A DNA stretch of 64,000 bases, taken from NCBI GenBank assembly GCA_026387175.1, contig JAPLME010000011.1, positions 1,856 to 65,855 on the forward strand. Direction: 5' to 3'. Under the pieces are notes generated by a model. That model was not told the DNA's origin. It saw only the letters and a list, made by a program, of their open reading frames with translations, and did no database searches. Shown here one piece after another: positions 26,416-55,800 of this stretch (the first letter of the stretch is position 1; each line of letters opens with the position of its first letter). The position numbers were made by a program, and so were the translations under genes. The stretch is from Candidatus Omnitrophota bacterium. Its GTDB lineage: Bacteria > Omnitrophota > Gorgyraeia > 2-01-FULL-45-10.

Positions 26416-26426
26416 TAAAGGCTGTA

Positions 26427-26660
26427 ATGTTTAAAGCCACAATCGTAACTCCCAATAAAGTATTGTTCGATGGTGAGGCCTGGAGCGTTTTTTTGCCCGG
26501 GGCTACCGGTGAGTTTGAAATTCTGGAGATGCATAAGGCGATCGTGAGCCTTTTGCGTCAGGGAAATATTGTGATTAACTGGGATATAGAGATACCGGTA
26601 ACCAGCGGCGCGGTCAGGATGTCCGGCGATGAGCTGGTGGCGATAGTAGAGTCAGATTAG
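26427..26660 (+). CDS. atpC: F-type ATP synthase epsilon-like subunit, N-terminal beta-sandwich domain only (77 aa)
   Basis: MFKATIVTPNKVLFDGEAWSVFLPGATGEFEILEMHKAIVSLL matches the epsilon N-domain pattern (GEA..V.LPG..GEFGIL.GH). The start was moved from the track's 26379 to the ATG at 26427 to avoid overlapping the upstream gene. The protein lacks the C-terminal helical hairpin. Confidence 0.55.
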   Translation: MFKATIVTPNKVLFDGEAWSVFLPGATGEFEILEMHKAIVSLLRQGNIVINWDIEIPVTSGAVRMSGDELVAIVESD

Positions 26661-26662
26661 AG

Positions 26663-26689
26663 CAGCTTTCAGCAAAAAACTGATAGCTG
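26663..26689 (+). promoter_or_regulatory. Intergenic RNA stem-loop (10-bp stem with one mismatch, 7-nt A-rich loop) between atpC and atpF
   Basis: cagctttcag-caaaaaa-ctgatagctg. The same motif recurs after atpD. Confidence 0.35.
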
Positions 26690-26705
26690 TAACAAGGAGT
26701 CATAA

Positions 26706-27422
26706 ATGGTATTCCAACTAGTCGTAGTCCAGATAGTGACCTTCATCGCTATCGTCTTTGTGTTGAGGAAATTGTTATATTCCGAATCCGCCAAAGAGAT
26801 GCTCCGCTTGCGGAAGATCAAGGAAGAGACCGCGGTGAAGCAGAGAGAGCTGCAGCAAAAGATCGACGAAGCGCAGGATGCTTACAGCGAAAAGATCGCC
26901 GAAGCGGAACAGAAGACGCGGGCATTCCGTATTAAAGCGGAAGAAGAGATCGAGGAATTAAAGAAGAAGATATTGAGCAAGGCCAAAGAGGATGCCGAGC
27001 AGATAGTGAAATCCGCTTTCAATGCCAAAGAGAAGATCCGCGAAGAGATCGGCGAAGAGATGCGTAAGAAGGCGCCTCTCCTTGCCTCGCGGGTTTTTAA
27101 GGAAGTCCTTTCTCCGGAGGTCCAGGAGATGATGCATAAGGAATTAGTCAGGGATGTGATAGATAAGATAAGGAATACCGAGAAGACGGCCTTTAAGTCC
27201 AAAATCGAGAAGGGGGAGATCGTTTCGGCGTATCCTTTATCGAAAAACGATAAGCTCGTGGTGGAGTCTCTTATACACGATAGCCTCGGATACCAGATCC
27301 CTTTATATGAAACAGAAGACAGCCAGCTTGTAGCGGGCGTCCTTATCAAGCTGGGCACCATTTTAATAGACGGGAGCCTGAATAACAGGCTTAAACAGGT
27401 CGAGAGGGAGTTGGAATTTTAG
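26706..27422 (+). CDS. atpF: ATP synthase subunit b-like (N-terminal TM plus charged coiled coil) with a delta/OSCP-like C-terminus
   Basis: AAGGAG RBS. TM MVFQLVVVQIVTFIAIVFVL followed by a long E/K-rich helix. The C-terminus AGVLIKLGTILIDGSLNNRLKQVEREL resembles the delta C-terminal motif (G.....G....DGS....L). Confidence 0.55.
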   Translation: MVFQLVVVQIVTFIAIVFVLRKLLYSESAKEMLRLRKIKEETAVKQRELQQKIDEAQDAYSEKIAEAEQKTRAFRIKAEEEIEELKKKILSKAKEDAEQIVKSAFNAKEKIREEIGEEMRKKAPLLASRVFKEVLSPEVQEMMHKELVRDVIDKIRNTEKTAFKSKIEKGEIVSAYPLSKNDKLVVESLIHDSLGYQIPLYETEDSQLVAGVLIKLGTILIDGSLNNRLKQVERELEF

Positions 27423-27434
27423 AGAGGCGCTGAT

Positions 27435-27647
27435 ATGCGAAATCTTATAATAATTCTGGTGATGTTCGTTACGATACTCGGGCCCTCAGCGGTCATCGCG
27501 GCCATAGGCTTTGCCTCGATAAACGCTTTGGGAAGGAACCCGTCATCCGCTCCGAAGATATTAAGCGCGATGATAGTTTCCCTGGTATTTGCCGAAGCCA
27601 TCGCGGTGATCGCTCTTCTGGTATTGTTCCAGTTATTTGGGAGGTAA
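27435..27647 (+). CDS. atpE: ATP synthase subunit c (70-aa two-helix proteolipid)
   Basis: GAGAGG RBS. Helix-loop (GRNP)-helix architecture with a conserved carboxylate in helix 2 (VFAEAIAVIALL). Its position lies between the b and alpha genes. Confidence 0.7.
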   Translation: MRNLIIILVMFVTILGPSAVIAAIGFASINALGRNPSSAPKILSAMIVSLVFAEAIAVIALLVLFQLFGR

Positions 27648-27661
27648 GGCAAACCGCTATA

Positions 27662-29164
27662 ATGAAGACTGAATCTGTATCCATAGGGGAGATCGGGCGC
27701 ATAAAGGAGATCAAGAAATCTATCGTCACGATAGAAGGCCTTCACAACTGCATGCTGGGTCAGCTGGTGACGTTTACAGACGGCACTAAAGGTTTTGTGA
27801 TGGGTTTCAATGAAAACGAAGTCCTGGTGCTGCTTTTAGGAATTTCGAAGACATTAAAAGCCGGCAATGAAGTCTATTCCAGGGAAGAGTCCTTTAAGAT
27901 ACCGGTGGGAAATAATTTTTTGGGCCGTATCGTAAACCCGCTATGCGAGGGCCTGGACGGGAAGGGATACGTCAAGGAGGATTCTTTTGCCTATATATTC
28001 AGGGACGCGCCGGCGGTCCTCGATAGAGAGCCTGTCAATGAAATGCTGGTCACCGGGATAAGGATAGTCGATGCCACCATACCCATAGGTAAAGGACAAA
28101 GACAGCTTATCATAGGCGATAGAATGACGGGTAAGACATCGATAGCCGTCGACGCTATATTGAACCAGAAGGGTAAAGATGTCATATGCATATATTGCTG
28201 TGTGGGCCGTGACTACGCCTCGTTTGAAAAGGTCGTAGGCACTTTTAAAGAGAAGGACGCCCTCGATTATATGATAGTTGTGGCGGCTCTCGCTTCTTCT
28301 TCTATCGGAGAGCAGTATCTCGCCCCCTACGCCGCCGCGGCGTTGGGCGAATACTTCATGTACGCGGGCAAGAATGTCCTTATCGTTTTTGATGACCTTA
28401 CCAAACATGCGTGGGCATACAGAGAGTTGTCCCTTCTCCTGGAAAGGCCGCCCGGCAGAGAGGCTTATCCGGGAGATATATTTTACCTGCACGCTCAGCT
28501 TATGGAGAGAGGCGCCCGCCTGTCGTCACATAACGGCGGCGGCTCCATGACATTCCTCTCGATAGCGGATACCCTGCAGGGCGATATCTCCGGGTTTATA
28601 CCGACGAACCTGATCTCAATGACGGACGGGCAGATATACCTTAACTCCGCGTTATTCGGAGAGGGGTTCAAGCCCGCGATAGACATAGGGCTCTCCGTCT
28701 CGCGTATCGGCAGCAGGGTACAGTCGAAGACCTTAAGGGAATTGACGAAGAACCTCAGTTTAAAATATGTCCAGTACAGGGAGCTTCTGAAGACCACGAG
28801 ATTGAAGTCGGGTATCTCCGAAGATATGACCGGCCGCCTGAAGCACGGCGAGAAGATCGAAAGGATCTTCATGCAGGATAAGAACAGCCCGTCATCTCTG
28901 GCGGAGCAGCTTATCCTGTATTTCGCGCTTGAGACCGGGGCGCTCGATATCCTGTCGAACGAAAAGTGCGACTATTTCAAAAAAAATATATTAGCTTTCG
29001 CCAGGCAGGATATTCCGGCAGTGGTTGAGAACATGGAAAAAGGCGCCGAGATGACGGCCGAGGACAGGGAAGCTATTAAAAAATGTATAATGAATTTTAA
29101 CCATAAGTTGTGGGCATCCGAGGGTGAAACCGCGCCCATCTCCGCAGCCGAGGCCGCGGAATGA
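27662..29164 (+). CDS. atpA: F1 ATP synthase alpha subunit
   Basis: P-loop GDRMTGKTSIAVDAILNQ (alpha-type GDRQTGKT), N-terminal beta-barrel, 500 aa. Confidence 0.9.
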   Translation: MKTESVSIGEIGRIKEIKKSIVTIEGLHNCMLGQLVTFTDGTKGFVMGFNENEVLVLLLGISKTLKAGNEVYSREESFKIPVGNNFLGRIVNPLCEGLDGKGYVKEDSFAYIFRDAPAVLDREPVNEMLVTGIRIVDATIPIGKGQRQLIIGDRMTGKTSIAVDAILNQKGKDVICIYCCVGRDYASFEKVVGTFKEKDALDYMIVVAALASSSIGEQYLAPYAAAALGEYFMYAGKNVLIVFDDLTKHAWAYRELSLLLERPPGREAYPGDIFYLHAQLMERGARLSSHNGGGSMTFLSIADTLQGDISGFIPTNLISMTDGQIYLNSALFGEGFKPAIDIGLSVSRIGSRVQSKTLRELTKNLSLKYVQYRELLKTTRLKSGISEDMTGRLKHGEKIERIFMQDKNSPSSLAEQLILYFALETGALDILSNEKCDYFKKNILAFARQDIPAVVENMEKGAEMTAEDREAIKKCIMNFNHKLWASEGETAPISAAEAAE

Positions 29165-30048
29165 AGGCGCGGGAGATAAAAGAGGACCTCCTCTTCAATA
29201 CCGAATTCATGGGCCTTCTCGAAGTGATGAAGAATATAGCGATTTCTCAATTCCGGTCCCTTCAGAAGAAGAGGAGCAGGTTTATCCGGTTCACCCAGCT
29301 TTTGAACGGTTTTTTTCAGATGGTGGATATCAGGCAGGCCCCGCACAAGTTAATAAACCCAAAGACAGAGAAGAGGGCGATCGTATCGATAACCTCCGAC
29401 GAGGGCTTTATGGGGGACCTGAATTTTCAGGTCGTGGACGCCGCGATCATGAAAGGAGGCCCCGAATCCGCTGAGATTATCGTAGTAGGAGAGTCGGGGG
29501 TAAGGTATCTGAAAGATATGGGAAGAAAATTTACCGCGTTTAAAAACGCCGCCGACGCCGAAGCGAGACATACCGTCGCCGTGGAGCTGAAGAATTATAT
29601 CATGCGAGGCATCGCTGAAGACCGTTTCGGCAGGGTGTCCGTTTACTATCCTAACCCGATCTCATTCATGATCCAGAAAGTGGAAGCCGTGGAGCTTCTT
29701 CCCCTCACTGCCTTCTTTTCGCCGCAGGCGCAAGGCCCGGGATACGATCAGCAGGTGATAGTAGAATCGCCGGCGGAGGGCATAATAGAATACCTCGCCG
29801 AGGAATTTATCGAACAAAAACTGATGGAGCTTCTCGAAGACAGCAAGCTTTCAGAGTTCGCCGCGAGAGGCGCCCACCTCGAGCGGAGCGGCCAGGAGCT
29901 CGCCGAAAAACAGAAACGGCTCAGAGCCCAGTATTTTCACGCTTATCATGAAGTCATAGACAAAAATACCAGAGAACTATTTTCCTCGCAGATTATCATA
30001 AAGCGGAAGGCCAAAGAGGTATCCGCAGCGCTGAATCTTAAAGTATAA
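29161..30048 (+). CDS. atpG: F1 ATP synthase gamma subunit
   Basis: The ATGA start overlaps the atpA stop. The protein is 295 aa, sits between alpha and beta, and has the coiled-coil termini typical of gamma (C-terminus ...LNLKV). Confidence 0.8.
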   Translation: MKAREIKEDLLFNTEFMGLLEVMKNIAISQFRSLQKKRSRFIRFTQLLNGFFQMVDIRQAPHKLINPKTEKRAIVSITSDEGFMGDLNFQVVDAAIMKGGPESAEIIVVGESGVRYLKDMGRKFTAFKNAADAEARHTVAVELKNYIMRGIAEDRFGRVSVYYPNPISFMIQKVEAVELLPLTAFFSPQAQGPGYDQQVIVESPAEGIIEYLAEEFIEQKLMELLEDSKLSEFAARGAHLERSGQELAEKQKRLRAQYFHAYHEVIDKNTRELFSSQIIIKRKAKEVSAALNLKV

Positions 30049-31453
<1,405 letters not shown>

Positions 31454-31455
<2 letters not shown>

Positions 31456-31494: not shown

Positions 31495-33201
31495 ATGGCG
31501 TTACGATTGGGAGATATTTTAGTCGAGAAGGGAATAATAACGCAGGAGGAACTCAATACCGCTCTTGCGGAGCAGCAGAGGACGAAGGAGGCCCTGGGGC
31601 AGATATTGATCAGGATGGGTTTCGTTGCGGAGAGAGATATGCTTCAGATCCTGGCGAAACAGCAGGGTATCCCGTTCGTCGAGCTGAAGATGAAAGATAT
31701 TGATGATAAGGTCCTGAAGAATGTGCCCGCCAAATTTGTCTGGCACTATAAGATAATGCCGATAAGCCTCGACGGCAATATCCTTACGGCCGCCATATCC
31801 AATCCGTTCGATATGTGGCCGATCGACGACCTGGAGACGCACCTCGGGTTCAAAGTGGAGAAGGTCCTGGCTACGTCCGCGGATATAATGGAGGCGATAA
31901 AGAAATATTACGGGGTAGGAGCGGAGACGATAGACCGTATATTATCCGATGATGTGCGTCCCGCCGGAGAGACATCCACCGCGGGAGAAGAAAAAGTAGA
32001 GGACCTCGAAAAACTGGCGGAATCGGCTTCGGTGATAAAGCTGGTGAACCAGATATTGCAGGAAGCCATAACGGACAGGGCGACGGATATACATTTTGAA
32101 CATTTCAGGGGTGAACTGGTCCTGCGTTACAGGATAGACGGCATACTGTATGATACGCCGGTCAGCGAGAAGATAAAATATCTCCATCCGGCGATCGTCT
32201 CCAGGATAAAGGTCATGTCGGGCCTCGATATCGTCGAACGCAGGCTGCCTCAGGACGGCCGCGCGAAGGTGAAGATAGGAAAGAGCGAATATGAGCTGCG
32301 CGTGTCGATAATGCCGACGCTCTACGGCGAGAATATAGTCATAAGGGTCCTGCCCACCACGATGCTTTTCAATATCGCGGATCTGGGTATGTCCCATAAC
32401 GACAGGAGCATCATCGAGCAGCTGCTGAAAAAATCGCACGGCATAATCTTTGTCACGGGCCCGACGGGCAGCGGCAAGACCACCACCCTGTACGCCTGTC
32501 TCAGCAAGCTGAACTCGCGGGAAAGAAAGATCCTTACCATCGAGGACCCGATCGAATATGAATTGGGCGGCATCTCGCAGACGCAGGTCAACGCGAAGAT
32601 AGACCTTACATTCGCCAAGATGCTCAGGAGCATGCTGAGGCACGACCCGGACGTGATGATGGTCGGAGAGGTCAGGGACCTGGAGACCGCCGAGATCACT
32701 ATCCAGACGGCCCTCACGGGGCACCTGGTATTCTCCACGCTCCATACAAACGACGCGGCAAGCGGCGTGACCCGTTTAGTTGATATAGGCATAGAGCCGT
32801 ATCTGGTGGCCTCTTCCGTTATAGCTTTTATCGCGCAGAGGCTCGTCAGGGTCATATGCGCTGCTTGCAAGGAGAAAGTGACGCTGGCAGAGCTGGGTTT
32901 TAAAAACGATCAGTTGAAGATCGAGGGATTCGACTCGAATCACAACACTGTTGTATATAGAGGTAAAGGCTGCAAGGCCTGCGGCGGCACCGGTTACGTA
33001 GGCAGGGCGGCCATATATGAGATCTTATTGATAAAGGATGAGATCAAGGACCTTATTTTAACTAAATCGCCGGCGCATATCATAAAAGATAAAGCCACGC
33101 AGCTCGGGATGCATACCTTAAAGCAGGATGGATGGGACAAGGTGGTGGCGGGCGTAACCACGCCGGAAGAGGTATTGAGAGTGACACAGCTGGAAGGATA
33201 A
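31495..33201 (+). CDS. gspE: T2SS/type IV pilus assembly ATPase (GspE/PilB family)
   Basis: AGGAG RBS. N-terminal T2SSE_N domain, Walker A GPTGSGKTTT, tetracysteine CAACKEK...CKACGGTG. Confidence 0.9.
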   Translation: MALRLGDILVEKGIITQEELNTALAEQQRTKEALGQILIRMGFVAERDMLQILAKQQGIPFVELKMKDIDDKVLKNVPAKFVWHYKIMPISLDGNILTAAISNPFDMWPIDDLETHLGFKVEKVLATSADIMEAIKKYYGVGAETIDRILSDDVRPAGETSTAGEEKVEDLEKLAESASVIKLVNQILQEAITDRATDIHFEHFRGELVLRYRIDGILYDTPVSEKIKYLHPAIVSRIKVMSGLDIVERRLPQDGRAKVKIGKSEYELRVSIMPTLYGENIVIRVLPTTMLFNIADLGMSHNDRSIIEQLLKKSHGIIFVTGPTGSGKTTTLYACLSKLNSRERKILTIEDPIEYELGGISQTQVNAKIDLTFAKMLRSMLRHDPDVMMVGEVRDLETAEITIQTALTGHLVFSTLHTNDAASGVTRLVDIGIEPYLVASSVIAFIAQRLVRVICAACKEKVTLAELGFKNDQLKIEGFDSNHNTVVYRGKGCKACGGTGYVGRAAIYEILLIKDEIKDLILTKSPAHIIKDKATQLGMHTLKQDGWDKVVAGVTTPEEVLRVTQLEG

Positions 33202-33214
33202 CAAAAATCTACTG

Positions 33215-34480
33215 ATGCCGATATACAGTTATACCGCAAAAAAAGGCCCGACCGAAATAGTAAAAAGCGAGATAGAGGCCGAATCTGAGGATAAGGCCGT
33301 CGTCATGATAGAGGCTATGGGGTTCTTTCCCATCAAGGTGGTTGAATTAAGACCGCCGTCGGCGACGCCAAGGGCGCCTGAGCGCGCCAAGCCGGAAGCT
33401 CCGCCAGTCGCCGCTAATAAAGAACAGGGCCTCTCTTCAGTGAAAGTCGGCGCGCATGATATGGACACCTTCATGTGGCAGCTGGCCAGCCTGATAAAAT
33501 CGAGCATTCCTCTCCTGCGCGCCTTATCCCTGATAGCGCGGCAGACTAAGAATAAGTCGCTTAAGGCGGTGGCCGGCGACCTGGAGCTCAAGATAAAGCA
33601 GGGAGAGCTGCTCTCCGCGGCGATGAGCAAATACCCTAATCTCTTTAATAACCTTACCGTAAATATGATAAAGGCCGGAGAGAAGAGCGGTTCTCTCGAC
33701 GAAGTGCTGTATAAGCTGGCGGAATACCGCGAGAAAGAGCAGGAGATGAAGCGCAAGATACAGTCGGCCCTTGCCTATCCGATGGTCGTTGTCGCGGTCG
33801 GTATAGGGACGATATTTATGATGTTCACGTATTTTCTGCCCAAGCTGCTGAAATTATTCGAGAATATGAAACAGGAGCTGCCGCTGCCTACGAAGCTATT
33901 GATCGCGACCAGCAAATTTATGTCCAGTTACTGGTATGTATTTGTAATAGGCATCGTTTTCGTGATCGCGGTAATCTTCAGAAATAAACCCGGAAGTAGG
34001 AAGAAGTTTATGCTCGACATGTTCTGCCTGCGCGTGCCTTTTATCAATAAATTTATAAAGACATCCGAGATAGCGCGATTTGCCAGGTCGCTGGGGCTCC
34101 TGCTTAAAAACGGCATACCCGTCTATGAGAGCCTCGATCTCGCGGCTAAGACGCTGGATAATCAGGCGCTGAAGACGCAACTGGCGCAAGCATCCGCGGT
34201 TATCGTTAACCAGGGCTGCACGATATCGGAAAGTTTCAGGCGCACAGGAGTGTTCCCGGAGTTCACGATAAATATGATAGCGGTAGGCGAGGAAGGCGGG
34301 AGACTGGAGGAATCGCTCGCCGAGATAGCCGCCTCATATGAAAAGGAAGTGGAACAGACCATAAAGGTCATGACATCGATGATAGAGCCCCTGCTGATAC
34401 TGATCGTCGGGGGATTTGTCGGCTTCATCGTATTCGCGATGCTCCTTCCTATATTGAATATGGGGGGGATGGGCGGATGA
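33215..34480 (+). CDS. gspF: T2SS/T4P inner-membrane platform protein (GspF/PilC family)
   Basis: 421 aa with a duplicated GspF domain, three TM segments and a GxxxxEE-like motif (IAVGEEGGRLEESL). Confidence 0.85.
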   Translation: MPIYSYTAKKGPTEIVKSEIEAESEDKAVVMIEAMGFFPIKVVELRPPSATPRAPERAKPEAPPVAANKEQGLSSVKVGAHDMDTFMWQLASLIKSSIPLLRALSLIARQTKNKSLKAVAGDLELKIKQGELLSAAMSKYPNLFNNLTVNMIKAGEKSGSLDEVLYKLAEYREKEQEMKRKIQSALAYPMVVVAVGIGTIFMMFTYFLPKLLKLFENMKQELPLPTKLLIATSKFMSSYWYVFVIGIVFVIAVIFRNKPGSRKKFMLDMFCLRVPFINKFIKTSEIARFARSLGLLLKNGIPVYESLDLAAKTLDNQALKTQLAQASAVIVNQGCTISESFRRTGVFPEFTINMIAVGEEGGRLEESLAEIAASYEKEVEQTIKVMTSMIEPLLILIVGGFVGFIVFAMLLPILNMGGMGG

Positions 34481-35253
34481 GCTTGGCGCTGAAGGTATGT
34501 CTATTCCTTCTCCTCCTGTGCCCGGGGGCGCGGGCCGAGAATTGGCAGGAGTTAAAGGGTGAGCATTTCGAGATATTTTATATCGAGGATCCAGCCTTCG
34601 CGCAGGAGACGCTGACGCAGGCCGAGAAATATTACGAGAAGATAGCCTCGGACCTGGGTTATTCAAGATATGATAATTTCTGGCAATGGGATAACAGGGC
34701 GAAGATATATATTTACAAAAACCGGGAAGATTTTTTAAAGGCCACCGGTAAGAAGCCATGGATTTACGGGACCGCGATATATAATGAACGGACGATAATA
34801 AGCTACAGATGGAGCCAGGGATTCTTTGACATATTACTGCCTCACGAGCTGGGCCATCTCATATTCAGGGATTTTGTAGGGTTTAAAGGGGAGGTCCCTC
34901 TGTGGCTGGATGAGGGCATTGCTCAGTGGGAGGAGACCAACAAGCGCCAGCGGGCGATTTATATGGTCAGGAGCCTTGTCGCCAAAAAAGAATTCATACC
35001 CCTGACCGAATTGATGCGCTTCAATTCGAGCAGCGAGAATGATTTTGCTCTCTCCGCCAAACTTTACGCCCAGGCGGTCACGCTGGTAGGCTATCTTATA
35101 GAGAAGTACGGCCCGACGAGATTCGCGCAATTCTGCCGGAGTCTGCGCGATGGAAAGAGCATAGACGAGGCGCTGTCATTCGCTTATACCGATTCAATAC
35201 GGAATATAAACGAACTGGAAAAAGGATGGATAAAGTACTACGGAGGAGAATAA
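34477..35253 (+). CDS. Secreted HExxH zinc-metallopeptidase-like protein (peptidase MA-like) embedded in the pilus/T2SS operon
   Basis: The start overlaps the gspF stop (ATGA). Signal peptide MSLALKVCLFLLLLCPGARA. HELGH motif in LLPHELGHLIFRDF with a downstream Glu (WLDEGIAQWEE). Confidence 0.55.
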   Translation: MSLALKVCLFLLLLCPGARAENWQELKGEHFEIFYIEDPAFAQETLTQAEKYYEKIASDLGYSRYDNFWQWDNRAKIYIYKNREDFLKATGKKPWIYGTAIYNERTIISYRWSQGFFDILLPHELGHLIFRDFVGFKGEVPLWLDEGIAQWEETNKRQRAIYMVRSLVAKKEFIPLTELMRFNSSSENDFALSAKLYAQAVTLVGYLIEKYGPTRFAQFCRSLRDGKSIDEALSFAYTDSIRNINELEKGWIKYYGGE

Positions 35254-35254
35254 G

Positions 35255-35674
35255 ATGACGGGAAGAAAAAAAGGCTTCACCCTTATTGAACTTATGATAG
35301 TCGTGGTAATAATAGTGGCGCTGGCGTCGATGGTCGTGCCGCGCTTAAGCGGACGTACGGAACAGGCTAAAAAAGCCGTCGCGAAAGCGGATATCGGTTC
35401 AAACATATCGATGGCGCTGAAGTTATACGAGCTTGATAACGGGAATTTCCCCACCACGGAGCAGGGCCTGGCCGCCCTGGCCTCTTCTCCATCCTCCGCG
35501 CCCGTTCCCAGCAACTGGAACGGCCCATATCTTGAAACCATACCTGCGGATCCCTGGGGCAACCCTTATAAATATAAATGCCCGGGCAGTCATAATAAAA
35601 CGACCTATGATCTCTATTCGGTAGGCAAAGACGGCTTGGAAGAAACGGATGATGATATCAAGAATTGGAAATAG
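35255..35674 (+). CDS. gspG: Major pseudopilin / type IV pilin-like protein (GspG family)
   Basis: Prepilin leader and N-methylation motif MTGRKKGFTLIELMIVVVII, 139 aa. Confidence 0.85.
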   Translation: MTGRKKGFTLIELMIVVVIIVALASMVVPRLSGRTEQAKKAVAKADIGSNISMALKLYELDNGNFPTTEQGLAALASSPSSAPVPSNWNGPYLETIPADPWGNPYKYKCPGSHNKTTYDLYSVGKDGLEETDDDIKNWK

Positions 35675-36152
35675 GGTATCCGGCTCAAGACGCGGGTTCA
35701 CGCTTCTCGAAACGCTGATGGCCATCTCCATTTTAGCCGTAGGGACGGTCAGCGTCCTTCGGGCCTATTCTACATCGGTAAGCGCCATCGAAAGGGCGCA
35801 GTATAATATAGACGCGGGTTGCCTATTGAAGTCAGTCATGGGCCTTATCGAGGAGAAGGCTATCACCGGAAAGGGGACGTCGCCGGGCGAGTCATCCGGC
35901 GAGTTAAACTCTTCATCCGGTATAAAGATGGACACGACGCAGTCGGATAAATGGGAATGGAGCGAAGAAGTGAAGGATGCCGGCCTCGAGATAAAGAAAC
36001 CGAAAGAAACGCCCGCATCGGGGGAGAAGAAGCCGGAAAAAGAGGTCTATTCCTTAAACGAGGTCAAGCTTACCGTCGTGAACCACGAACGGAGCCCGTC
36101 GAATAAAGTAAGCGTGATAACGTACATGGAGAACAGCAGTGCCGCGCGCTGA
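35649..36152 (+). CDS. Minor pseudopilin (GspH/GspI-like)
   Basis: GFTLLETLMAISILAVG prepilin-type N-terminus. The start is uncertain because the leader before GFT is long with the 35649 ATG, which overlaps gspG by 26 nt. Confidence 0.55.
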   Translation: MMISRIGNRVSGSRRGFTLLETLMAISILAVGTVSVLRAYSTSVSAIERAQYNIDAGCLLKSVMGLIEEKAITGKGTSPGESSGELNSSSGIKMDTTQSDKWEWSEEVKDAGLEIKKPKETPASGEKKPEKEVYSLNEVKLTVVNHERSPSNKVSVITYMENSSAAR

Positions 36153-36885
36153 CGGGGCCAAAGGCTTTACGCTGGTGGAGATGATGCTGGCGGCGGGCAT
36201 ACTGGCGATAATAGGATTAACCATAGTCTCGACTTTTTCCGGCGGGATGAATATTTTTTACAGGATAGAGGGCCAGACCGCGGCCAAAACGGATGTGCTC
36301 GTCGCGATGGAGAAGATGGAGAGGGACCTGAGAGACACATTCTGTTACACCGGCATAGACTTCATCGGCAGCTCCAGGAAGATGGCCTTTCCCGGCCTCA
36401 TAAGGGCATTCAACGATAAGGGCTTGCCCGAGGAGTCGCTGGGCTCGATCTCGTACTATCTCGACGATAGGATGAGGAAAAGGGCCCTCTCCAGAGAAGT
36501 GAAAAGATATTCTTATGCCGTCAAAAAAGAAAGTTCCCCGCCAGGCGACATTCTGCCCTTGGCGGAGATAGAGGATGTGAATTTCAAATATTATACCTAC
36601 GATCCGGAATCGGAATCTTACAACTGGGCGAGTTCATGGGATAAGACCGAAAAGATAAAGAAGAAGAAAGAGGAGGGGGTCGCGACCGGCGACGTGCTCC
36701 TTAAAGACAGAGAAGAGAACATCCCTCTGGGGGTCAAGATTGAAATAAGCTATAAGGAGAACGGCAGGACTATTACGCTGAACAGGGCCGTATTTTTGCC
36801 GACGGCCGTATCATTGAACCTCGCGAAGATAAAGGCAAAGTCTAAAACGGCGAACGCGACAGGGGCGGCGAGTGAGAAGAAATAG
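36139..36885 (+). CDS. Minor pseudopilin (GspJ-like)
   Basis: MPRADGAKGFTLVEMMLAAGILAII prepilin-type N-terminus, 248 aa. Confidence 0.6.
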   Translation: MPRADGAKGFTLVEMMLAAGILAIIGLTIVSTFSGGMNIFYRIEGQTAAKTDVLVAMEKMERDLRDTFCYTGIDFIGSSRKMAFPGLIRAFNDKGLPEESLGSISYYLDDRMRKRALSREVKRYSYAVKKESSPPGDILPLAEIEDVNFKYYTYDPESESYNWASSWDKTEKIKKKKEEGVATGDVLLKDREENIPLGVKIEISYKENGRTITLNRAVFLPTAVSLNLAKIKAKSKTANATGAASEKK

Positions 36886-37900
36886 AAGAGGGAGCGTCCT
36901 TATCGTGGTCCTGTGGAGCCTGTTCTTTATGGCGATGCTTGCCGTGGCCATAAATTCATATGTCCGGCCGCAGATGGAGTTTTCAAGCAGGTTATCGGCC
37001 AATACCAGGATGTATTATATCGCGCGCGCCGGGGTCCAGAGGGCGATCTTCGAGGTCGAGAACGATGAAACCGAAACGTACGATAGCCTGTATGACTCAT
37101 GGGGCAACAACGACGCGGCTTTCAATAATGTGTCCTTTGGCGGCGGTAAGTTCAGCGTTATAAGGCCGGAGCCGCCGGGCCCCTCCGCCGGCAAGGGGAC
37201 CAGCGCCGCCCAGGCGGGCGAATCCAAGCCGCAGTACGGCCTTATAGACGAGGAGAGCAAGATCAATATAAATAAGGCCCCGCATGACGTCCTGAAGAAT
37301 TTATTTGAGAAGATGGCCGGGGTTGAGTCGAAGGAAGCAGACGGTATAGCGGATTGTATACTGGATTGGGTCGACAAGGACGACTCGCTTCATAAGGACG
37401 GTAAGGAAGACGACTATTACCAGTCGCTCGGCGATCCCTATCATTGCAAAAATGGCCCTTTTGAGGCCATAGAAGAGCTTCTCCTTGTAGCGGGAGTGAC
37501 GCGGGAAAGTTTCGATAAGGTGAAGGATATTATTACGATATACGGCAATGGCACAGTTAATGTCAATACCGCGGACGCGCGGGTGCTGGAGGTCCTCGGC
37601 TTAACTAAGGAGGCCTCCGAAAGCATAGTAAGCTTCCGTTCCGGACGAAATTCAAAAAAAGAGGGAGAGATTCCGGACAATGTCTTTACGAATGTTTCGG
37701 CGATAGCGGGTGTGTTGAACAAGGCGGGCGCCAGTGATGGCGGCGCCAGCCTCATCAGCGCCTCGGCGATGCTCGGCGTGAAATCCGATAATTTCAGAGG
37801 CACCGTTAAGGGTTCGCTCGGGAGCTCGGGGCGATCGGAGACGATAACGTTCGTGTACGACAGAAATGATAAGATAATAAAGTACTGGAGAGAAGAATGA
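36872..37900 (+). CDS. gspK: Minor pseudopilin GspK-like
   Basis: N-terminus RRGSVLIVVLWSLFFMAMLAV is typical of GspK. 342 aa. Confidence 0.6.
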   Translation: MRRNRRGSVLIVVLWSLFFMAMLAVAINSYVRPQMEFSSRLSANTRMYYIARAGVQRAIFEVENDETETYDSLYDSWGNNDAAFNNVSFGGGKFSVIRPEPPGPSAGKGTSAAQAGESKPQYGLIDEESKININKAPHDVLKNLFEKMAGVESKEADGIADCILDWVDKDDSLHKDGKEDDYYQSLGDPYHCKNGPFEAIEELLLVAGVTRESFDKVKDIITIYGNGTVNVNTADARVLEVLGLTKEASESIVSFRSGRNSKKEGEIPDNVFTNVSAIAGVLNKAGASDGGASLISASAMLGVKSDNFRGTVKGSLGSSGRSETITFVYDRNDKIIKYWREE

Positions 37901-39414
37901 TCGGCGGCATAAAAAGTTTCATAAATAATATAAAGATACCGCGCTTTCCGCGAAATATGAAATTCATGAAATTTGATTTTAAGGCCGGCGCCGTCGCGGT
38001 GGAGATAGGGAACGACTGGCTGAAGATATCCCAGAAGAGCCCCGCCAGGGGTAACGAGTTCATCTACCAGATCAGCCTCACCAAGCTGGCTGAGATCAAA
38101 GGCGGAGTAGCGCTCGCCATAGACGATATCTTCAAGGACCTCAAGCTTGACAGGCAGCATGTGGTAGCCTATATCCCGCGCCATCTGGTCACCGTGCGCA
38201 TGCTGGACCTGCCCGCCACGGATCCCAAAGAGATAAATGATATGATCAATCTGCAGGTGGGTAAACAGACGCCCTATTCGAAGGAAGAGATAGTGTCGTC
38301 GCATAAGATAATAGAGATCGGCGCCGCCGGATATGCCAAGGTTATGCTGGTCATAGCGGCGCGCAATATCATCAACGAACGCACGGATACGCTTGTAAAG
38401 GCCGGCCTGGACATAAAGAGGGTCGCCATATCTTCCGAGGGAGTTTTCAACTGGTTTACCACCATTCACATGCCGCGCTTAAAACTGGATGATTCTCAAG
38501 GTGTGGTAGTGGTGGATATAGATTCCAACTATTCGGATTTCATAGTTATACGCAGAGGGAAGATGGTCTTTACCAGAAACATATTCATAGGCGCAAATCA
38601 CCTCATGCAGGACTCGGACGAGTGGCGGGATAAGTTTGCGGAGGAATTGAAACGGTCCTTCGAACGGCACCAGAGCGAGGAAAAGAACGTAAAGATAGTA
38701 AAGATGTTTTTGAGCGGCGCGGGAGCGAATATAAAAGGGCTGGATATTGTCTTGAGCGCCGGCATCGGGCTCCCCATTGAGGGCATAGACCAGCTTAGCG
38801 ATATCCGCGCGAGAAATAGCATCGAAGCTTTGCGGGCCGAGAATTTCAGGTACGTTTCGCTGACCCAGCTTCTCGGGGTGTCGATGACCGACAAGGAGCC
38901 GCAGATCGATCTCACGACCGGCGAGCAGAAGGTCCAGCATCTGATGGACACGAAGAGGAAACAGCTTACCGTAATGGGGATATTGATAGCATCGATCGTT
39001 ACAATGCTGTCGTTCCTGTGCCTGACGGATATTTATAATAAGAACGCGTATCTATCGAAGCTGAAACGCATGGCGACAAAGATAGGCGCGGACGCGGATG
39101 ATATCGAAAAGATGCGGGCGGTGATCAGCCTGGTGGAGAAACGCCTGGATTCCCGCGGTTCTTCGATAGAGGTGATAAATGAGATATACAAGATCACCCC
39201 TAAAGAGATATATCTTACGGATATAAATATAGACGAAAAACAGACGGTGGTTCTGAAGGGCGGGGGCCTCGCGATGTCGGACGTATTTAAATATGTCAAG
39301 AAGCTCGAAGAATCGGATATGCTCGAGAATGTCAAGACCACATACACGACGACCAAGAAAGATAAGGATACCGAATTCGCGGAGTTTGAGATATCCTGCA
39401 CTTATCAAAAATAA
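37897..39414 (+). CDS. gspL: GspL-like assembly protein (PilM-like actin-fold N-domain fused to a PilN-like TM and periplasmic domain)
   Basis: 505 aa. Cytoplasmic actin-like region, mid-protein TM LTVMGILIASIVTMLSFLCL, C-terminal periplasmic domain. Confidence 0.6.
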   Translation: MIGGIKSFINNIKIPRFPRNMKFMKFDFKAGAVAVEIGNDWLKISQKSPARGNEFIYQISLTKLAEIKGGVALAIDDIFKDLKLDRQHVVAYIPRHLVTVRMLDLPATDPKEINDMINLQVGKQTPYSKEEIVSSHKIIEIGAAGYAKVMLVIAARNIINERTDTLVKAGLDIKRVAISSEGVFNWFTTIHMPRLKLDDSQGVVVVDIDSNYSDFIVIRRGKMVFTRNIFIGANHLMQDSDEWRDKFAEELKRSFERHQSEEKNVKIVKMFLSGAGANIKGLDIVLSAGIGLPIEGIDQLSDIRARNSIEALRAENFRYVSLTQLLGVSMTDKEPQIDLTTGEQKVQHLMDTKRKQLTVMGILIASIVTMLSFLCLTDIYNKNAYLSKLKRMATKIGADADDIEKMRAVISLVEKRLDSRGSSIEVINEIYKITPKEIYLTDINIDEKQTVVLKGGGLAMSDVFKYVKKLEESDMLENVKTTYTTTKKDKDTEFAEFEISCTYQK

Positions 39415-39426
39415 CGGGAACCGAAC

Positions 39427-39972
39427 ATGATCAATATGGAATTTTTTTATAAATTATCGAAGAAGGAAAAGATAGGGCTGATGGCGGCCATCGTAGTCAT
39501 AGCGCTTATGCTCATCGACAGGCTCGTCATAAGCCCCATAGGCAACAGGATCCAGCGTATAGACCAGGAGATAAAATTCAGCGAGAAAAAATTGAGCCGC
39601 GACCTGCGTAATATGAATAATAAGGATATCATCGAAAGAGAGTATAAGAAGTATAAAAATTATGTGAAGAAGAGCTCCGTCTCGGACGAAGAAGATGTGG
39701 CAAATATACTCGGGGAGATAGAGGGCCTGGCGCGTTCATCCAGCGTCAGCCTGGTCGATATAAAGCCGCAGGCTCCGAAGCGGGCCGATTTTTACAAAGA
39801 GTACGCTATCGAGGTGGAAGTGGAAGGCAGCATGGAACAGGTCATCACTTTCCTGCACGACCTGAATAGCTCCGCGCAGTTATTGAGAGCGGTGAAACTC
39901 CGTATCGGTCTTAAAGACAAAGAATTATCCGCTATAAAAGCGTCCCTCCTTGTGACCAAGATCTCAATATAA
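39427..39972 (+). CDS. GspM/PilO-like bitopic assembly protein
   Basis: 181 aa. N-terminal TM IGLMAAIVVIALMLI, coiled coil, and a C-terminal alpha/beta domain. It is the last gene of the operon. Confidence 0.5.
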   Translation: MINMEFFYKLSKKEKIGLMAAIVVIALMLIDRLVISPIGNRIQRIDQEIKFSEKKLSRDLRNMNNKDIIEREYKKYKNYVKKSSVSDEEDVANILGEIEGLARSSSVSLVDIKPQAPKRADFYKEYAIEVEVEGSMEQVITFLHDLNSSAQLLRAVKLRIGLKDKELSAIKASLLVTKISI

Positions 39973-40011: not shown

Positions 40012-40043
40012 CCAATAGGGGAAGTGTCCCCTTGGCCGTTTTT
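40012..40043 (+). terminator. Rho-independent terminator ending the giant-gene/atp/T2SS co-directional gene block
   Basis: ccaa-ta-gggga-agtg-tcccc-ttgg hairpin followed by ccg-ttttt. It overlaps the stop of the convergent minus-strand gene. Confidence 0.4.
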
Positions 40044-40365
40044 ACCGCGGTGACGTAGCTATCTGCGAGAATTTTTCCGGGTGTTTTATGAAATGCTTTG
40101 CGCACGCGTCACAGCACAGATTGTAGATCTTGCCCTTATATTCGATTTTGATGCAGTTGGCCTTATCGATATCATCGTCTGAAACCGGGCAGCGGAAGTT
40201 CTTTACGCTTTCAGCCGTGCTGCTTACCTGTTCTTCTTTTGTCAGGATTTTAGCCTCGTCACTCTCATCCCCGCATACACCGTTTCCAGCCCCGATGCCT
40301 GCGCATAAAAGCAGGGCTAAAGCTATTATAAAGACACTTTTTTTCAATATATTAAATATATTCAT
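40042..40365 (-). CDS. Small secreted Cys-rich YHS/TRASH-like domain protein
   Basis: Signal peptide MNIFNILKKSVFIIALALLLCAG. C-terminus KGKIYNLCCDACAKHFIKHPEKF resembles the YHS metal-binding domain. It is the only minus-strand gene in the window. Confidence 0.5.
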   Translation of the reverse strand: MNIFNILKKSVFIIALALLLCAGIGAGNGVCGDESDEAKILTKEEQVSSTAESVKNFRCPVSDDDIDKANCIKIEYKGKIYNLCCDACAKHFIKHPEKFSQIATSPR

Positions 40366-43497: not shown

Positions 43498-43555
43498 TAT
43501 TGACTAAGCCCGCCATTCATGTTAGTTTAGATTTCGATATTTTGGAATATATTGT

Positions 43556-43630
43556 GCCGAGGTAGCTCAGCGGTAGAGCGCTGCCCTGAAAAGGCAGGCG
43601 TGGCGTGTTCGACTCACGCCCTCGGCACCA
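43556..43630 (+). tRNA. tRNA-Phe (anticodon GAA)
   Basis: Cloverleaf with acceptor GCCGAGG/CCTCGGC, D-arm GCTC-AGCGGTA-GAGC, anticodon stem CTGCC/GGCAG with loop CTGAAAA, T-arm GCGTG-TTCGACT-CACGC, discriminator A and encoded CCA. Confidence 0.85.
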
Positions 43631-43692
43631 TTTTATTGTCCGAAAAATCTGCTAGGGGGCGGGTAGAGAGTGAGATTGGAACAAGGAAAAAC

Positions 43693-49115: not shown

Positions 49116-49137
49116 AAACTCTATCTAACAAGGTGAA

Positions 49138-52000: not shown

Positions 52001-52008
52001 ATACCCAT

Positions 52009-53139: not shown

Positions 53140-53172
53140 GCTGTTTTAATACTATTAACCCGGAGGATTTCG

Positions 53173-54750: not shown

Positions 54751-54774
54751 ATTAAATATTATAAAGGGGGGACC

Positions 54775-55791: not shown

Positions 55792-55800
55792 GCAGAGCTT

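What the first reader, a model, noticed from the sequence alone, without database searches (positions are those of the whole stretch)
31495..39972. T2SS/type IV pilus-like operon (E, F, G, H/I-like, J-like, K, L-fusion, M) without a secretin, prepilin peptidase or GspC in the window
A complete inner-membrane platform and pseudopilus set are encoded as tightly overlapping genes directly downstream of the giant gene and atp cluster. The presence of GspK and of a PilM-PilN (GspL-type) fusion argues for a T2SS-like or pseudopilus machine rather than a twitching pilus. The absence of gspD (secretin) and gspO in this 40-kb block is notable. The outer-membrane channel, if any, is encoded elsewhere, or the system is a diderm-atypical or pilus-like apparatus. 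A role in exporting or displaying the giant protein is an inference.
Basis: partly seen in the sequence, partly recalled or inferred. Interest (0 to 1): 0.6.

Follow-up and report, generated by a model that had tools for sequence, protein, structure and literature searches.

The report
Omnitrophota pseudopilus operon beside giant gene
This is a nine-gene operon for a type II secretion-like pseudopilus machine in an uncultured Omnitrophota bacterium. It belongs to a published, phylum-wide gene cluster that pairs such machines with an F-type ATPase, and here I show the cluster also includes a giant adhesin-like gene.

Summary
No secretin, prepilin peptidase, GspC or PilT is encoded anywhere in the 64 kb.

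The window comes from a Candidatus Omnitrophota MAG. Seymour et al. 2023 already described F-type ATPase/"type-4a pilus" loci in every Omnitrophota class, and this locus is one of them.

My additions:
- The filament parts are T2SS-type: GspG passes the NCBIfam equivalog cut-off, and K matches only GspK.
- The alignment proteins are T4aP-type: PilM-PilN and PilO.
- The ATPase has an MshEN c-di-GMP motif.
- ATPase beta lies within 1.8 kb upstream of E in 64 of 67 related loci.
- No secretin was found inside the operon of any of 80 relatives examined.
- The cluster also includes a membrane protein (U453) and, upstream of it, a giant gene with a conserved C-terminal module.

The likeliest role is c-di-GMP-gated assembly of a short pseudopilus that serves export or surface display during host attachment. 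The outer-membrane channel and prepilin peptidase would be encoded elsewhere. I rate it a new member of a known kind, of moderate interest.

The parts
31495..33201 (+). GspE/PilB-family assembly ATPase with an N-terminal MshEN c-di-GMP-binding motif. It has two tandem 24-residue motifs and two CxxC motifs (CAAC, CKAC) in the C-terminal region.
   Evidence: T2SSE scores 2.9e-130 and MshEN 4.6e-17. TIGR02533 GspE scores 588 bits against a cut-off of 630. TIGR02538 PilB scores 572 against 676. NF053729 c-di-GMP motif scores 71.5 against 38. The sequence was read. PDB matches: full-length PilF/PilB 457-481 bits, EpsE core 387 bits, PilF core 344 bits.
33215..34480 (+). GspF/PilC-type polytopic inner-membrane platform protein.
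   Evidence: T2SSF scores 6e-61 with two domains. TIGR02120 GspF scores 344 bits, below its cut-off of 424, against 263-277 bits for PilC models. Three TM helices were found.
34477..35253 (+). Secreted or periplasmic gluzincin metallopeptidase (Peptidase_MA_2). Its start overlaps the F stop by 4 bp.
   Evidence: Pfam 1e-17. H123, E124, H127 and E146 are invariant in 26 homologues, and a signal peptide is present. The AlphaFold model has pLDDT 89. The best PDB folds are M9 collagenase, M1 and M30 peptidase domains, TM 0.55-0.63. It lies between F and G in 69 loci and is absent there in 6.
35255..35674 (+). Major pseudopilin GspG. Class III signal peptide MTGRKKG|FTLIE. Has a GspG-type C-terminal acidic DG..E..DDI motif and only a single Cys.
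   Evidence: TIGR01710 scores 159.9 bits against a cut-off of 88.85. PulG (5wda) scores 110 bits over residues 8-137. Type IV pilins match only the N-terminal helix, 24-32 bits. Identity across the phylum is 51-88%.
35649..36152 (+). Minor pseudopilin, GspI/PilV-like, poorly conserved. The gene callers start it at 35652.
   Evidence: N_methyl 7.7e-6. GspI TIGR01707 scores 28 bits, below its cut-off of 44. GFTLLE motif.
36139..36885 (+). Minor pseudopilin, GspJ-like.
   Evidence: N_methyl 2.8e-5. PRK08808 T2SS protein J scores 1.5e-6 over residues 7-173, below cut-off. GFTLVE motif.
36872..37900 (+). GspK-type minor pseudopilin, the tip cap, lacking Glu5. The gene callers start it at 36905.
   Evidence: T2SSK_1st 8.2e-19 and HHH_3. 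NF037980 GspK scores 104 bits, below its cut-off of 130. The only PDB sequence matches are XcpX and GspK.
37897..39414 (+). PilM-PilN fusion with GspL-like topology: cytoplasmic actin-like domain, one TM helix, periplasmic PilN domain.
   Evidence: PilM_2 1.5e-15 and PilN 3.9e-10. TIGR01175 PilM scores 93 bits, and there is no GspL hit. TM helix at residues 357-375. PDB matches are PilM only.
39427..39972 (+). PilO/GspM-type bitopic assembly protein.
   Evidence: PilO 4.2e-8 and T2SSM_b 0.003. GspM_XpsM scores 33 bits, below its cut-off of 60. TM helix at residues 16-34.
40016..40034 (+). Terminator-like hairpin followed by a T-run. This is the probable end of the transcription unit. The next gene (YHS, 40042-40365) is on the opposite strand.
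26379..31455 (+). Context, the conserved partner: an F-type ATPase cluster of epsilon, b-delta fusion, c, alpha, gamma and beta, with no a-subunit gene. It ends 40 bp before E with no terminator-like site between them.
   Evidence: ATPase beta lies within 1.8 kb upstream of E in 64 of 67 related loci. [quoted passage not shown]
25054..26415 (+). Context: U453, a conserved unknown protein. It has a signal peptide, two repeats of beta-sandwich plus 3-helix bundle, and a C-terminal TM helix. Some orthologues carry a cytoplasmic GGDEF domain.
   Evidence: No PDB fold match. It sits between the giant gene and the ATPase cluster in relatives.
1..25032 (+). Context: giant adhesin-like gene, truncated at the left edge of the window. 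Within it, the module at nt 23098-24504 and the 38-aa C-terminal tail at nt 24913-25029 are conserved in the giant genes of relatives.
   Evidence: The frame is open from base 1. Pfam finds only Amnionless-like repeats and Big_1. There is no TM helix, and the composition is T/G/S/A/N-rich. The C-terminal module is conserved at 28-65% identity in 23-25 loci, and the tail at 58-79%.

Best explanation
The operon encodes the inner-membrane engine and filament subunits of a type IV filament machine. Its composition is a hybrid of T2SS and T4aP parts.

Shown from sequence:
- A GspE/PilB-family ATPase with an MshEN c-di-GMP motif.
- A GspF platform protein.
- A PilM-PilN fusion and a PilO/GspM protein, which would clamp the ATPase to the platform.
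- A true GspG-type major pseudopilin.
- A GspI/J/K-like set of the kind that primes and caps a pseudopilus.
- A co-translated, signal-peptide-bearing gluzincin peptidase.

Inferred mechanism: when c-di-GMP binds the MshEN domain, the ATPase drives GspF to polymerise processed GspG under the I-J-K tip. This gives a short periplasm-spanning pseudopilus that pushes cargo outward. Four subunits have class III signal peptides, so a prepilin peptidase must be supplied from elsewhere in the genome. The organism is a diderm (LptF/G, TolC-like OEP and a LamB porin are in the window), so an outer-membrane channel, most likely a secretin encoded elsewhere, is also needed.

The operon is the distal part of a phylum-wide conserved supercluster: giant adhesin-like gene with a conserved C-terminal module, U453, F-type ATPase, then this operon. 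Its most probable job is therefore export or surface display of cluster-encoded proteins, namely the peptidase and possibly the giant protein, during attachment to host or prey cells. The cargo and the outer-membrane route are inferred, not shown.
For: Component identities.

Topologies and class III signal peptides.

MshEN motif: NF053729 scores 71.5 bits against a cut-off of 38, and the two tandem motifs were read directly.

Gene packing and a single terminator-like site after M.

Organism: Omnitrophota.

Conserved order U453 - atp - E - F - (MA) - G - (I) - J - K - L - M in loci from many Omnitrophota species (80 anchored on the peptidase, 37 on U453, with some duplicate contigs):
- ATPase beta lies next to E in 64 of 67 loci.
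- K, L and M are detectable in 48 of 53.

Giant gene upstream: the ORF is open to the sequence edge in 24 of 26 loci, and the C-terminal module is homologous.

c-di-GMP and two-component signalling are wired into the cluster in relatives:
- GGDEF-fused U453 orthologues.
- Histidine kinases, response regulators and RR-PilZ genes inserted into the operon.

Diderm envelope genes in the window.

Literature:
- Seymour et al. 2023 report F-type ATPase/T4aP loci in every Omnitrophota class and link them to attachment (PMC10066038).
- West-Roberts et al. 2023 report secretion-system genes near Omnitrophota giant genes (10.1101/2023.11.21.568195).
Against: - No secretin, GspC, GspH or prepilin peptidase lies in the window or in the conserved operon of relatives. 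The outward route is therefore unproven, and a canonical T2SS cannot be claimed.
- E, F, I, J, K and M all score below NCBIfam equivalog cut-offs.
- L and M resemble PilM/PilN/PilO rather than GspL/GspM. The full-length ATPase matches PilF/PilB best in the PDB. A surface pilus therefore remains possible.
- The peptidase is missing from the operon in at least six related loci, so it cannot be the universal cargo.
- Conserved synteny suggests a functional link to the giant gene and the ATPase but does not prove one.
- The giant protein's N-terminus, and hence its export signal, was not seen.
Confidence: 0.55

Rival explanations
1. It is a genuine type IVa pilus, as TXSScan-based work labelled these loci. 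The filament would extend from the surface for adhesion or twitching on host cells. PilQ, PilP, PilT and PilD would be encoded elsewhere.
For: - PilM_2, PilN and PilO Pfam hits, and only PilM matches in the PDB.
- The full-length ATPase matches PilF/PilB best, 457-481 bits.
- Seymour et al. classify the loci as T4aP and report T4aP expression in V. archaeovorus.
Against: - The major subunit passes the GspG equivalog cut-off and aligns to PulG over its full length, including the C-terminal acidic DG..E..DDI motif. Type IV pilins match only the N-terminal helix.
- K matches only GspK.
- F scores higher on GspF than on PilC models, and the ATPase core scores higher on EpsE than on the PilF core.
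- No PilT, PilY1, PilP or PilQ lies in the window or the conserved operon.
Confidence: 0.2
2. The giant protein, U453, the a-less F-type ATPase and the pseudopilus platform form one integrated attachment or motility organelle. ATP-driven rotation or pseudopilus extension would actuate or deploy the giant surface fibre. This would be loosely analogous to Mycoplasma mobile gliding, where an F1-like ATPase powers giant surface legs.
For: - All four modules keep a strict order and tight spacing across distant Omnitrophota.
- Only 40 bp, with no terminator-like site, separates ATPase beta from E.
- No a-subunit gene lies in the cluster in the window or the six annotated relatives.
- The giant genes keep a conserved C-terminal module and tail directly before U453.
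- Seymour et al. place the alpha subunit with Mycoplasma type 2/3 ATPases.
Against: - The alpha subunit is very close to canonical F1 alpha, 447-465 bits in the PDB search, and no Mycoplasma gliding ATPase appears among the 60 matches listed.
- The c subunit keeps its ion-binding Glu, which fits an ordinary ATP synthase whose a subunit is encoded elsewhere.
- No physical interaction was tested.
- U453 has no informative structural match.
Confidence: 0.15
3. The neighbourhood is inherited gene order with no shared function. A housekeeping T2SS-like system simply sits beside a housekeeping ATP synthase and a large surface-protein gene.
For: - The ATPase subunits look canonical.
- Genes downstream of M are unrelated housekeeping genes and vary between lineages.
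Against: - The order is kept while protein identity falls to about 25-30% for U453, L and M, and while kinase and response-regulator genes are inserted inside the cluster without breaking it.
- The variable giant genes keep a conserved C-terminal module at this position.
- Gene order between unrelated functions rarely survives such divergence. This last point is established knowledge about operon evolution, not something tested here.
Confidence: 0.1

Closest known systems
[quoted passage not shown] 2023, Nat Microbiol, PMC10066038)
   Same: - Same phylum.
- An F-type ATPase cluster lies directly beside type IV filament genes. Here the gap is 40 bp, and 64 of 67 related loci keep the adjacency.
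- Host attachment is the proposed role.
   Different: - The paper labels the filament genes T4aP. It does not mention, in the text I could read, the GspG/GspK character of the subunits, the PilM-PilN fusion, the embedded gluzincin, the lack of a secretin in cis, U453, or the giant gene directly upstream.
- I did not test whether this window's alpha subunit falls in their 'symbiotic' clade.
Canonical type II secretion system (Gsp/Pul/Xcp/Eps)
   Same: - GspG-type major pseudopilin with a conserved C-terminal acidic motif.
- GspK-type cap, and I- and J-like minor pseudopilins.
- GspF-leaning platform protein.
- A GspL-like fused topology, and an M-like partner.
- Zn-finger-type CxxC pairs in the ATPase.
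   Different: - No GspD, GspC, GspH, GspN or GspO in the operon or the window.
- L matches PilM and PilN rather than GspL by sequence.
- The ATPase carries an MshEN c-di-GMP domain in place of the usual N1 domain context.
- Most parts score below equivalog cut-offs.
Type IVa pilus (PilBCMNOPQT) and MSH pilus
   Same: - PilM-, PilN- and PilO-type alignment proteins.
- A PilB/PilF/MshE-like full-length ATPase with an MshEN domain, as in V. cholerae MshE. The MshE comparison rests on established knowledge and the NCBIfam motif hit.
   Different: - No T4a major pilin, PilT/U, PilP, PilQ or PilY1.
- PilM and PilN are fused.
- The major subunit is GspG.
T2SS/Tad-like locus upstream of Omnitrophota giant genes (West-Roberts et al. 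2023, bioRxiv 10.1101/2023.11.21.568195)
   Same: A type IV filament-family secretion or pilus locus lies close to a giant gene in Omnitrophota. A predation or attachment role is proposed.
   Different: - That locus lies upstream of the giant gene and contains gspD, rcpC and a PPIase (Tad-like). This one lies downstream, after U453 and an ATPase cluster, and has none of those genes.
- Their giants have many TM helices and SecA-like domains. This one shows neither in the 8343 aa visible.
Mycoplasma mobile gliding machinery (F1-like ATPase plus giant Gli proteins)
   Same: An F1-type ATPase is associated with giant surface proteins in a host-attached bacterium. This is an analogy raised by Seymour et al.
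   Different: - The Mycoplasma machinery has no type IV filament system and no outer membrane.
- Here the alpha subunit is close to canonical F1, and c, b-delta, gamma and epsilon subunits are all present.

Membership tests
Canonical T2SS | Outer-membrane secretin GspD encoded with the system | tested here: not met
   No Secretin hit in any gene of the 64-kb window. None in the operon insertions of relatives (representatives of the sequence clusters scanned). None recurrent among 64 large flanking ORFs of relatives. The rest of the genome could not be searched.
Canonical T2SS | Major pseudopilin GspG | tested here: met
   TIGR01710 scores 159.9 bits against a cut-off of 88.85. The full-length match to PulG (5wda) scores 110 bits.
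Canonical T2SS | Minor pseudopilins GspH, I, J, K | tested here: inconclusive
   K matches T2SSK_1st at 8e-19 and GspK at 104 bits, below the cut-off of 130. I and J give only weak sub-threshold hits. No H is present.
Canonical T2SS | GspE ATPase and GspF platform (equivalog level) | tested here: inconclusive
   GspE scores 588 bits against a cut-off of 630, and GspF 344 against 424. Both models beat the PilB and PilC models but stay below the trusted cut-offs.
Canonical T2SS | GspC, GspL and GspM assembly platform | tested here: not met
   No GspC/PDZ protein is present. L matches PilM_2 and PilN, not GspL. M is PilO-like, with a weak GspM hit of 33 bits against a cut-off of 60. The fused topology does resemble GspL.
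Canonical T2SS / T4P (shared) | Prepilin peptidase (GspO/PilD, Peptidase_A24) | tested here: not met
   Absent from the window. It is required in trans because G, I, J and K have class III signal peptides. The whole genome is not testable with these tools.
Type IVa pilus | T4a major pilin | tested here: not met
   The only major-subunit candidate is GspG-type. Type IV pilins in the PDB match only its N-terminal helix. No other class III signal peptide ORF is in the window.
Type IVa pilus | Retraction ATPase PilT and PilP/PilQ outer-membrane subcomplex | tested here: not met
   None in the window or in the conserved operon of relatives. Elsewhere in the genome is not testable.
Type IVa pilus | PilM, PilN, PilO alignment proteins | tested here: met
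   PilM_2 1.5e-15 and PilN 3.9e-10, fused in one protein, and PilO 4.2e-8.
MshEN-type c-di-GMP receptor ATPases | N-terminal tandem 24-residue MshEN motif | tested here: met
   NF053729 scores 71.5 bits against a cut-off of 38, and Pfam MshEN 4.6e-17. Motifs RLGDILVEKGIITQEELNTALAEQ and ALGQILIRMGFVAERDMLQILAKQ were read. Binding itself was not tested.
Omnitrophota F-type ATPase/T4P locus (Seymour et al. 2023) | F-type ATPase cluster within 10 kb of type IV filament genes in an Omnitrophota genome | tested here: met
   ATPase beta ends 40 bp before E. The organism is Omnitrophota. The adjacency holds in 64 of 67 related loci.
Omnitrophota F-type ATPase/T4P locus (Seymour et al. 2023) | Alpha subunit in the 'symbiotic' (Mycoplasma type 2/3-like) clade | not tested
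   No reference tree was available. The PDB search shows highest similarity to canonical F1 alpha. The cluster lacks an a subunit.

The most novel reading that the evidence does not exclude
The giant adhesin-like protein (through its conserved C-terminal module and tail), the membrane protein U453, the a-less F-type ATPase and the secretin-less GspG pseudopilus machine are subunits of one previously uncharacterised envelope organelle. It would deploy or actuate a giant surface fibre under c-di-GMP control. In a diderm, this would parallel the F1-ATPase-powered giant 'legs' of Mycoplasma mobile. Its PilM-PilN-fused, GspG/GspK-bearing engine may also represent an evolutionary intermediate between T4aP and T2SS.
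Probability: 0.15. Interest if true: 0.85.

Novelty: new member of a known kind. Interest (0 to 1): 0.45.

Why it matters
Omnitrophota are widespread, ultra-small bacteria that probably live as predators or parasites, and none has been isolated in pure culture. How they attach to hosts and how they handle their giant proteins is unknown.

This locus shows four modules inherited together across the phylum: a giant adhesin-like gene, an unknown membrane protein, an F-type ATPase and a c-di-GMP-gated pseudopilus machine. That gives a concrete and testable candidate for the attachment apparatus.

The mixed make-up is also informative for how type II secretion evolved from type IV pili. It combines T2SS-type filament subunits with a PilM-PilN fusion and a PilO-type partner.

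The locus type itself is already published. The gain is refinement and new hypotheses, not a new class of system.

Tried and rejected
- The gene between F and G is not a pilin (H-like). It is a gluzincin peptidase.
- The peptidase cannot replace the prepilin peptidase. It is a soluble, signal-peptide-bearing periplasmic or secreted enzyme, whereas prepilin cleavage occurs at the cytoplasmic face by a polytopic aspartic protease. This rests on established knowledge.
- I checked whether secretins hide in the 3-8 kb insertions seen in relatives' operons. The insertions are histidine kinases, response regulators and RR-PilZ genes.
- I looked for a secretin downstream of M in relatives. I found a kinase, a TPR protein, nusG-rplKAJ-rpoB and assorted housekeeping genes instead. 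The output lists only the top 25 families, so a single isolated secretin among the 64 ORFs cannot be strictly excluded.
- I tried to extend beyond the window to find the secretin or peptidase. Only about 2.4 kb more was available on the right, and the cut ORF there has no PDB sequence match. The left side is blocked because the giant protein exceeds the look-up limit.
- The third homology search, with the giant's C-terminal 1199 aa, returned only 4 partial proteins. The giant proteins' N-termini and export signals therefore stayed unseen.
- U453 fold search gave no significant PDB match.
- I looked for a c-di-GMP riboswitch or other RNA element. Rfam found only tRNA-Phe.
- Supplementary tables of Seymour et al. 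listing the T4P/ATPase loci and giant ORFs were truncated in the held copy.
- Literature searches for Peptidase_MA_2 with pili, and for Omnitrophica with PilQ, found nothing useful.
- A strict regex for the MshEN motif fits few relatives (11 of 67 for motif I), because Gly10 is often replaced. c-di-GMP binding may therefore not be universal in the family.

Full report
**Observation**

Window 31495-39972 contains nine + strand ORFs with overlaps or gaps of 26 bp or less. Profile searches identify them as follows:
- A GspE/PilB-family ATPase: T2SSE 2.9e-130 and MshEN 4.6e-17.
- GspF: T2SSF 6e-61.
- A Peptidase_MA_2 metallopeptidase: 1e-17.
- GspG: T2SSG 2.5e-34. TIGR01710 scores 159.9 bits against a cut-off of 88.85.
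- Two minor pseudopilins with N_methyl motifs and weak GspI-like and GspJ-like hits.
- GspK: T2SSK_1st 8e-19.
- A PilM_2 + PilN fusion.
- A PilO/GspM-like protein.

Hydropathy gives the expected topologies. F has three TM helices. G, I, J, K and M each have one N-terminal helix. The fusion has one helix at residues 357-375, between its PilM and PilN parts. G, I and J carry G|FTL(I/L/V)E class III signal peptides, and K carries the Glu5-less variant. No other ORF in the window has such a motif. A terminator-like hairpin follows M at 40016-40034, and the next gene is on the opposite strand.

Pfam scans of every other + strand gene and of the one predicted - strand gene in the 64 kb found no secretin, Peptidase_A24, GspC or PilT.

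**Context inside the window**

Frame 1 is open from base 1, so the giant gene runs off the left edge and exceeds 8343 aa. Its visible part is rich in T, G, S, A and N, has no TM helix, and hits only Amnionless-like repeats and one Big_1 domain. It therefore looks like a soluble fibre or adhesin rather than the multi-TM, SecA-bearing 'Archaeovorins' of West-Roberts et al..

It is followed by a 453-aa unknown protein, called U453 here. U453 has a signal peptide, two repeats of a beta-sandwich plus a three-helix bundle, and a C-terminal TM helix. It has no PDB fold match.

Next comes an F-type ATPase cluster of epsilon, b-delta fusion, c, alpha, gamma and beta, with no a-subunit gene. Beta ends 40 bp before E, and no terminator-like site lies between them.

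LptF/G, a TolC-like OEP and a LamB porin in the window show a diderm envelope.

**Source and relatives**

The peptidase and U453 are 100% identical to proteins of a Candidatus Omnitrophica MAG. A scan of species-representative genomes with a peptidase alignment returned 80 loci, nearly all labelled Omnitrophota. A metagenome scan with U453 returned 31 more, and six further contigs were fetched through U453 homologues.

tblastn mapping shows the order U453 - atp - E - F - (peptidase) - G - (I) - J - K - L - M to be conserved while identities fall to about 25-35% for U453, J, K, L and M. The counts are:
- ATPase beta lies within 1.8 kb upstream of E in 64 of 67 loci.
- K, L and M are detectable downstream of G in 48 of 53.
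- The peptidase lies between F and G in 69 loci and is absent there in 6.

Insertions of 3-8 kb inside the operon in some lineages consist of PAS/GAF/Cache histidine kinases, response regulators and RR-PilZ proteins, not secretins. Downstream of M, relatives carry a kinase, a TPR protein, nusG-rplKAJ-rpoB or assorted housekeeping genes. Among 64 large flanking ORFs no family recurring in two or more of them was a secretin. Lack of a secretin in cis is thus a property of the conserved locus, not of this window alone.

**The giant gene is part of the cluster**

In 24 of 26 loci with sequence upstream of U453, the preceding ORF is open to the edge of the available sequence. It is at least 3200 aa in all 11 loci with a full 10-kb flank. 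Gene calls give 4701, 4508 and 6355 aa where known.

The domain content of these giants differs: RCC1/WD40, PKD, or beta-helix/NosD. All share a homologous C-terminal module. It corresponds to residues about 7700-8168 of the window's protein (nt 23098-24504), at 28-65% identity in 23-25 loci. Many also share a 38-residue C-terminal tail at 58-79% identity.

That test is not met, and the data point the other way. Some U453 orthologues carry a cytoplasmic GGDEF domain. This links the cluster to c-di-GMP, as does the MshEN motif in E.

**T2SS or T4aP?**

The parts are mixed.

T2SS-type parts:
- G passes the GspG equivalog cut-off. It aligns to PulG (5wda) over residues 8-137, including the C-terminal acidic motif. 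Type IV pilins match only its N-terminal helix.
- K matches only XcpX and GspK in the PDB.
- F scores 344 bits on the GspF model against 263-277 on PilC models.
- The ATPase core scores 387 bits on EpsE against 344 on the PilF core.

T4aP-type parts:
- The fusion matches PilM and PilN but not GspL.
- M matches PilO about as well as GspM.
- The full-length ATPase, with its MshEN N-terminus, is best matched by PilF/PilB at 457-481 bits.

E, F, K and M all fall below their NCBIfam cut-offs. I therefore file the system as a T2SS-like type IV filament machine and not as a member of canonical T2SS or T4aP. The PilM-PilN fusion has the topology of GspL, which fits the accepted view that T2SS derives from T4aP-like ancestors. 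That view is established knowledge and was not tested here.

**The peptidase**

The 258-aa protein has a signal peptide and invariant H123-E124-x-x-H127 and E146 in 26 homologues. A confident model (pLDDT 89) resembles the catalytic domains of M9 collagenases, M1 aminopeptidases and M30 lugdulysin, with TM 0.55-0.63. It is better conserved than F, K, L or M: 44-69% identity against 25-40% in distant loci. Its start overlaps the stop of F.

A Sec-exported folded enzyme encoded inside the operon is a natural candidate cargo. That is an inference, and six related loci lack it at this position.

**What is already known**

Seymour et al. [quoted passage not shown] This held in 57 of 66 contigs within 10 kb and in every class. 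[quoted passage not shown] The present operon plus atp cluster is one of these loci.

West-Roberts et al. 2023 (bioRxiv 10.1101/2023.11.21.568195) reported a different, Tad-like locus with gspD, rcpC and a PPIase upstream of giant genes, and pilZ and sugar-import genes downstream. A 2026 preprint confirms secretion or pilus genes flanking 13 of 14 giants.

In the text I could search, I found no description of the following:
- the GspG/GspK nature of the filament;
- the fusion protein;
- the embedded gluzincin;
- U453;
- the missing secretin;
- the giant gene with a conserved C-terminal module directly upstream of the ATPase/filament locus.

These are refinements of a known locus type.

**Mechanism proposed**

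Shown: the component set, the topologies, the class III signal peptides, the MshEN motif and the conserved supercluster.

Inferred:
- c-di-GMP binding to E licenses ATP-driven polymerisation of processed GspG under an I-J-K cap on the F/L/M platform. This forms a short pseudopilus.
- A prepilin peptidase and an outer-membrane channel are supplied in trans.
- The machine exports or helps display cluster-encoded proteins (the gluzincin, possibly the giant fibre) during host attachment.

My confidence in this explanation is about 0.55. The rivals are:
- a true surface T4aP (0.2);
- an integrated giant-fibre/ATPase/pseudopilus organelle (0.15);
- gene-order inertia without shared function (0.1).

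The alpha subunit's closeness to canonical F1 and the intact carboxylate in subunit c caution against assuming a non-respiratory ATPase. The conserved absence of an a-subunit gene in the cluster remains unexplained.

**Limits**

- I could not search the rest of the genome, so 'secretin elsewhere' is untested.
- The giant protein's N-terminus was not seen.
- No formal phylogeny of E or F was possible without reference sequences.
- Some related loci are duplicates of the same contig from different collections, for example L088 and L105. The locus counts therefore slightly overstate independent observations.

Noticed in passing
window 26379-31455: The F-type ATPase cluster has the order epsilon, b-delta fusion, c, alpha, gamma, beta and no a-subunit gene. 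The window and the six annotated relatives all lack an a-subunit gene in the cluster. Subunit c keeps its ion-binding Glu, and alpha is close to canonical F1 alpha.
   Followed up: partly
window 25054-26415: U453 is a conserved unknown protein: signal peptide, two beta-sandwich plus 3-helix-bundle repeats, and a C-terminal TM helix. It always sits between the giant gene and the ATPase cluster. Orthologues of about 610 aa carry a C-terminal GGDEF domain. No PDB fold match was found.
   Followed up: yes
window 23098-24504 and 24913-25029: Giant proteins with different repeat and domain content share a conserved C-terminal module of about 470 aa and a 38-aa C-terminal tail (58-79% identity). This could be a docking or sorting element.
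   Followed up: partly
L028, L032, L049, L051, L054, L059, L062, L065, L068, L079 (between E/F or F/peptidase): In some lineages the operon is interrupted by 3-8 kb of histidine kinases (PAS/GAF/Cache), response regulators and RR-PilZ genes. L065 and L079 also carry a second E paralogue at 45% identity.
   Followed up: partly
e.g. L049:15564-16118, L023:15696-16244: In 21 distant related loci a conserved ORF with a signal peptide follows M directly. It is about 160-184 aa and has no Pfam hit. It is absent from this window.
   Followed up: partly
window 43556-43630: A tRNA-Phe (GAA) overlaps the start of the mechanically called NUDIX ORF (43552-44193, TTG start). The real NUDIX gene must start further downstream.
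   Followed up: no
window 59193-60815: A 540-aa AsmA/YhdP-like protein gives a faint T2SSN (GspN) hit (E 7e-4, below cut-off). It lies 19 kb downstream of the operon and is probably unrelated.
   Followed up: no
window 46874-58439: A TolC-like OEP, a HlyD-family protein, two ABC ATPases and two ABC-2 permeases lie here. They are followed by a LamB porin and a sugar-type periplasmic binding protein ABC importer. This echoes the carbohydrate-import genes reported downstream of Omnitrophota giant genes.
   Followed up: no
window 58406-59176: A metallo-beta-lactamase-fold protein has precomputed Pfam hits that include Anti-Pycsar_Apyc1. It could be a cyclic-nucleotide-degrading enzyme.
   Followed up: no
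L063:17165-20752: One relative carries a second, divergent pilin plus E-like ATPase set. It begins about 2 kb downstream of the last detected gene of the main operon (the L-like fusion).
   Followed up: no
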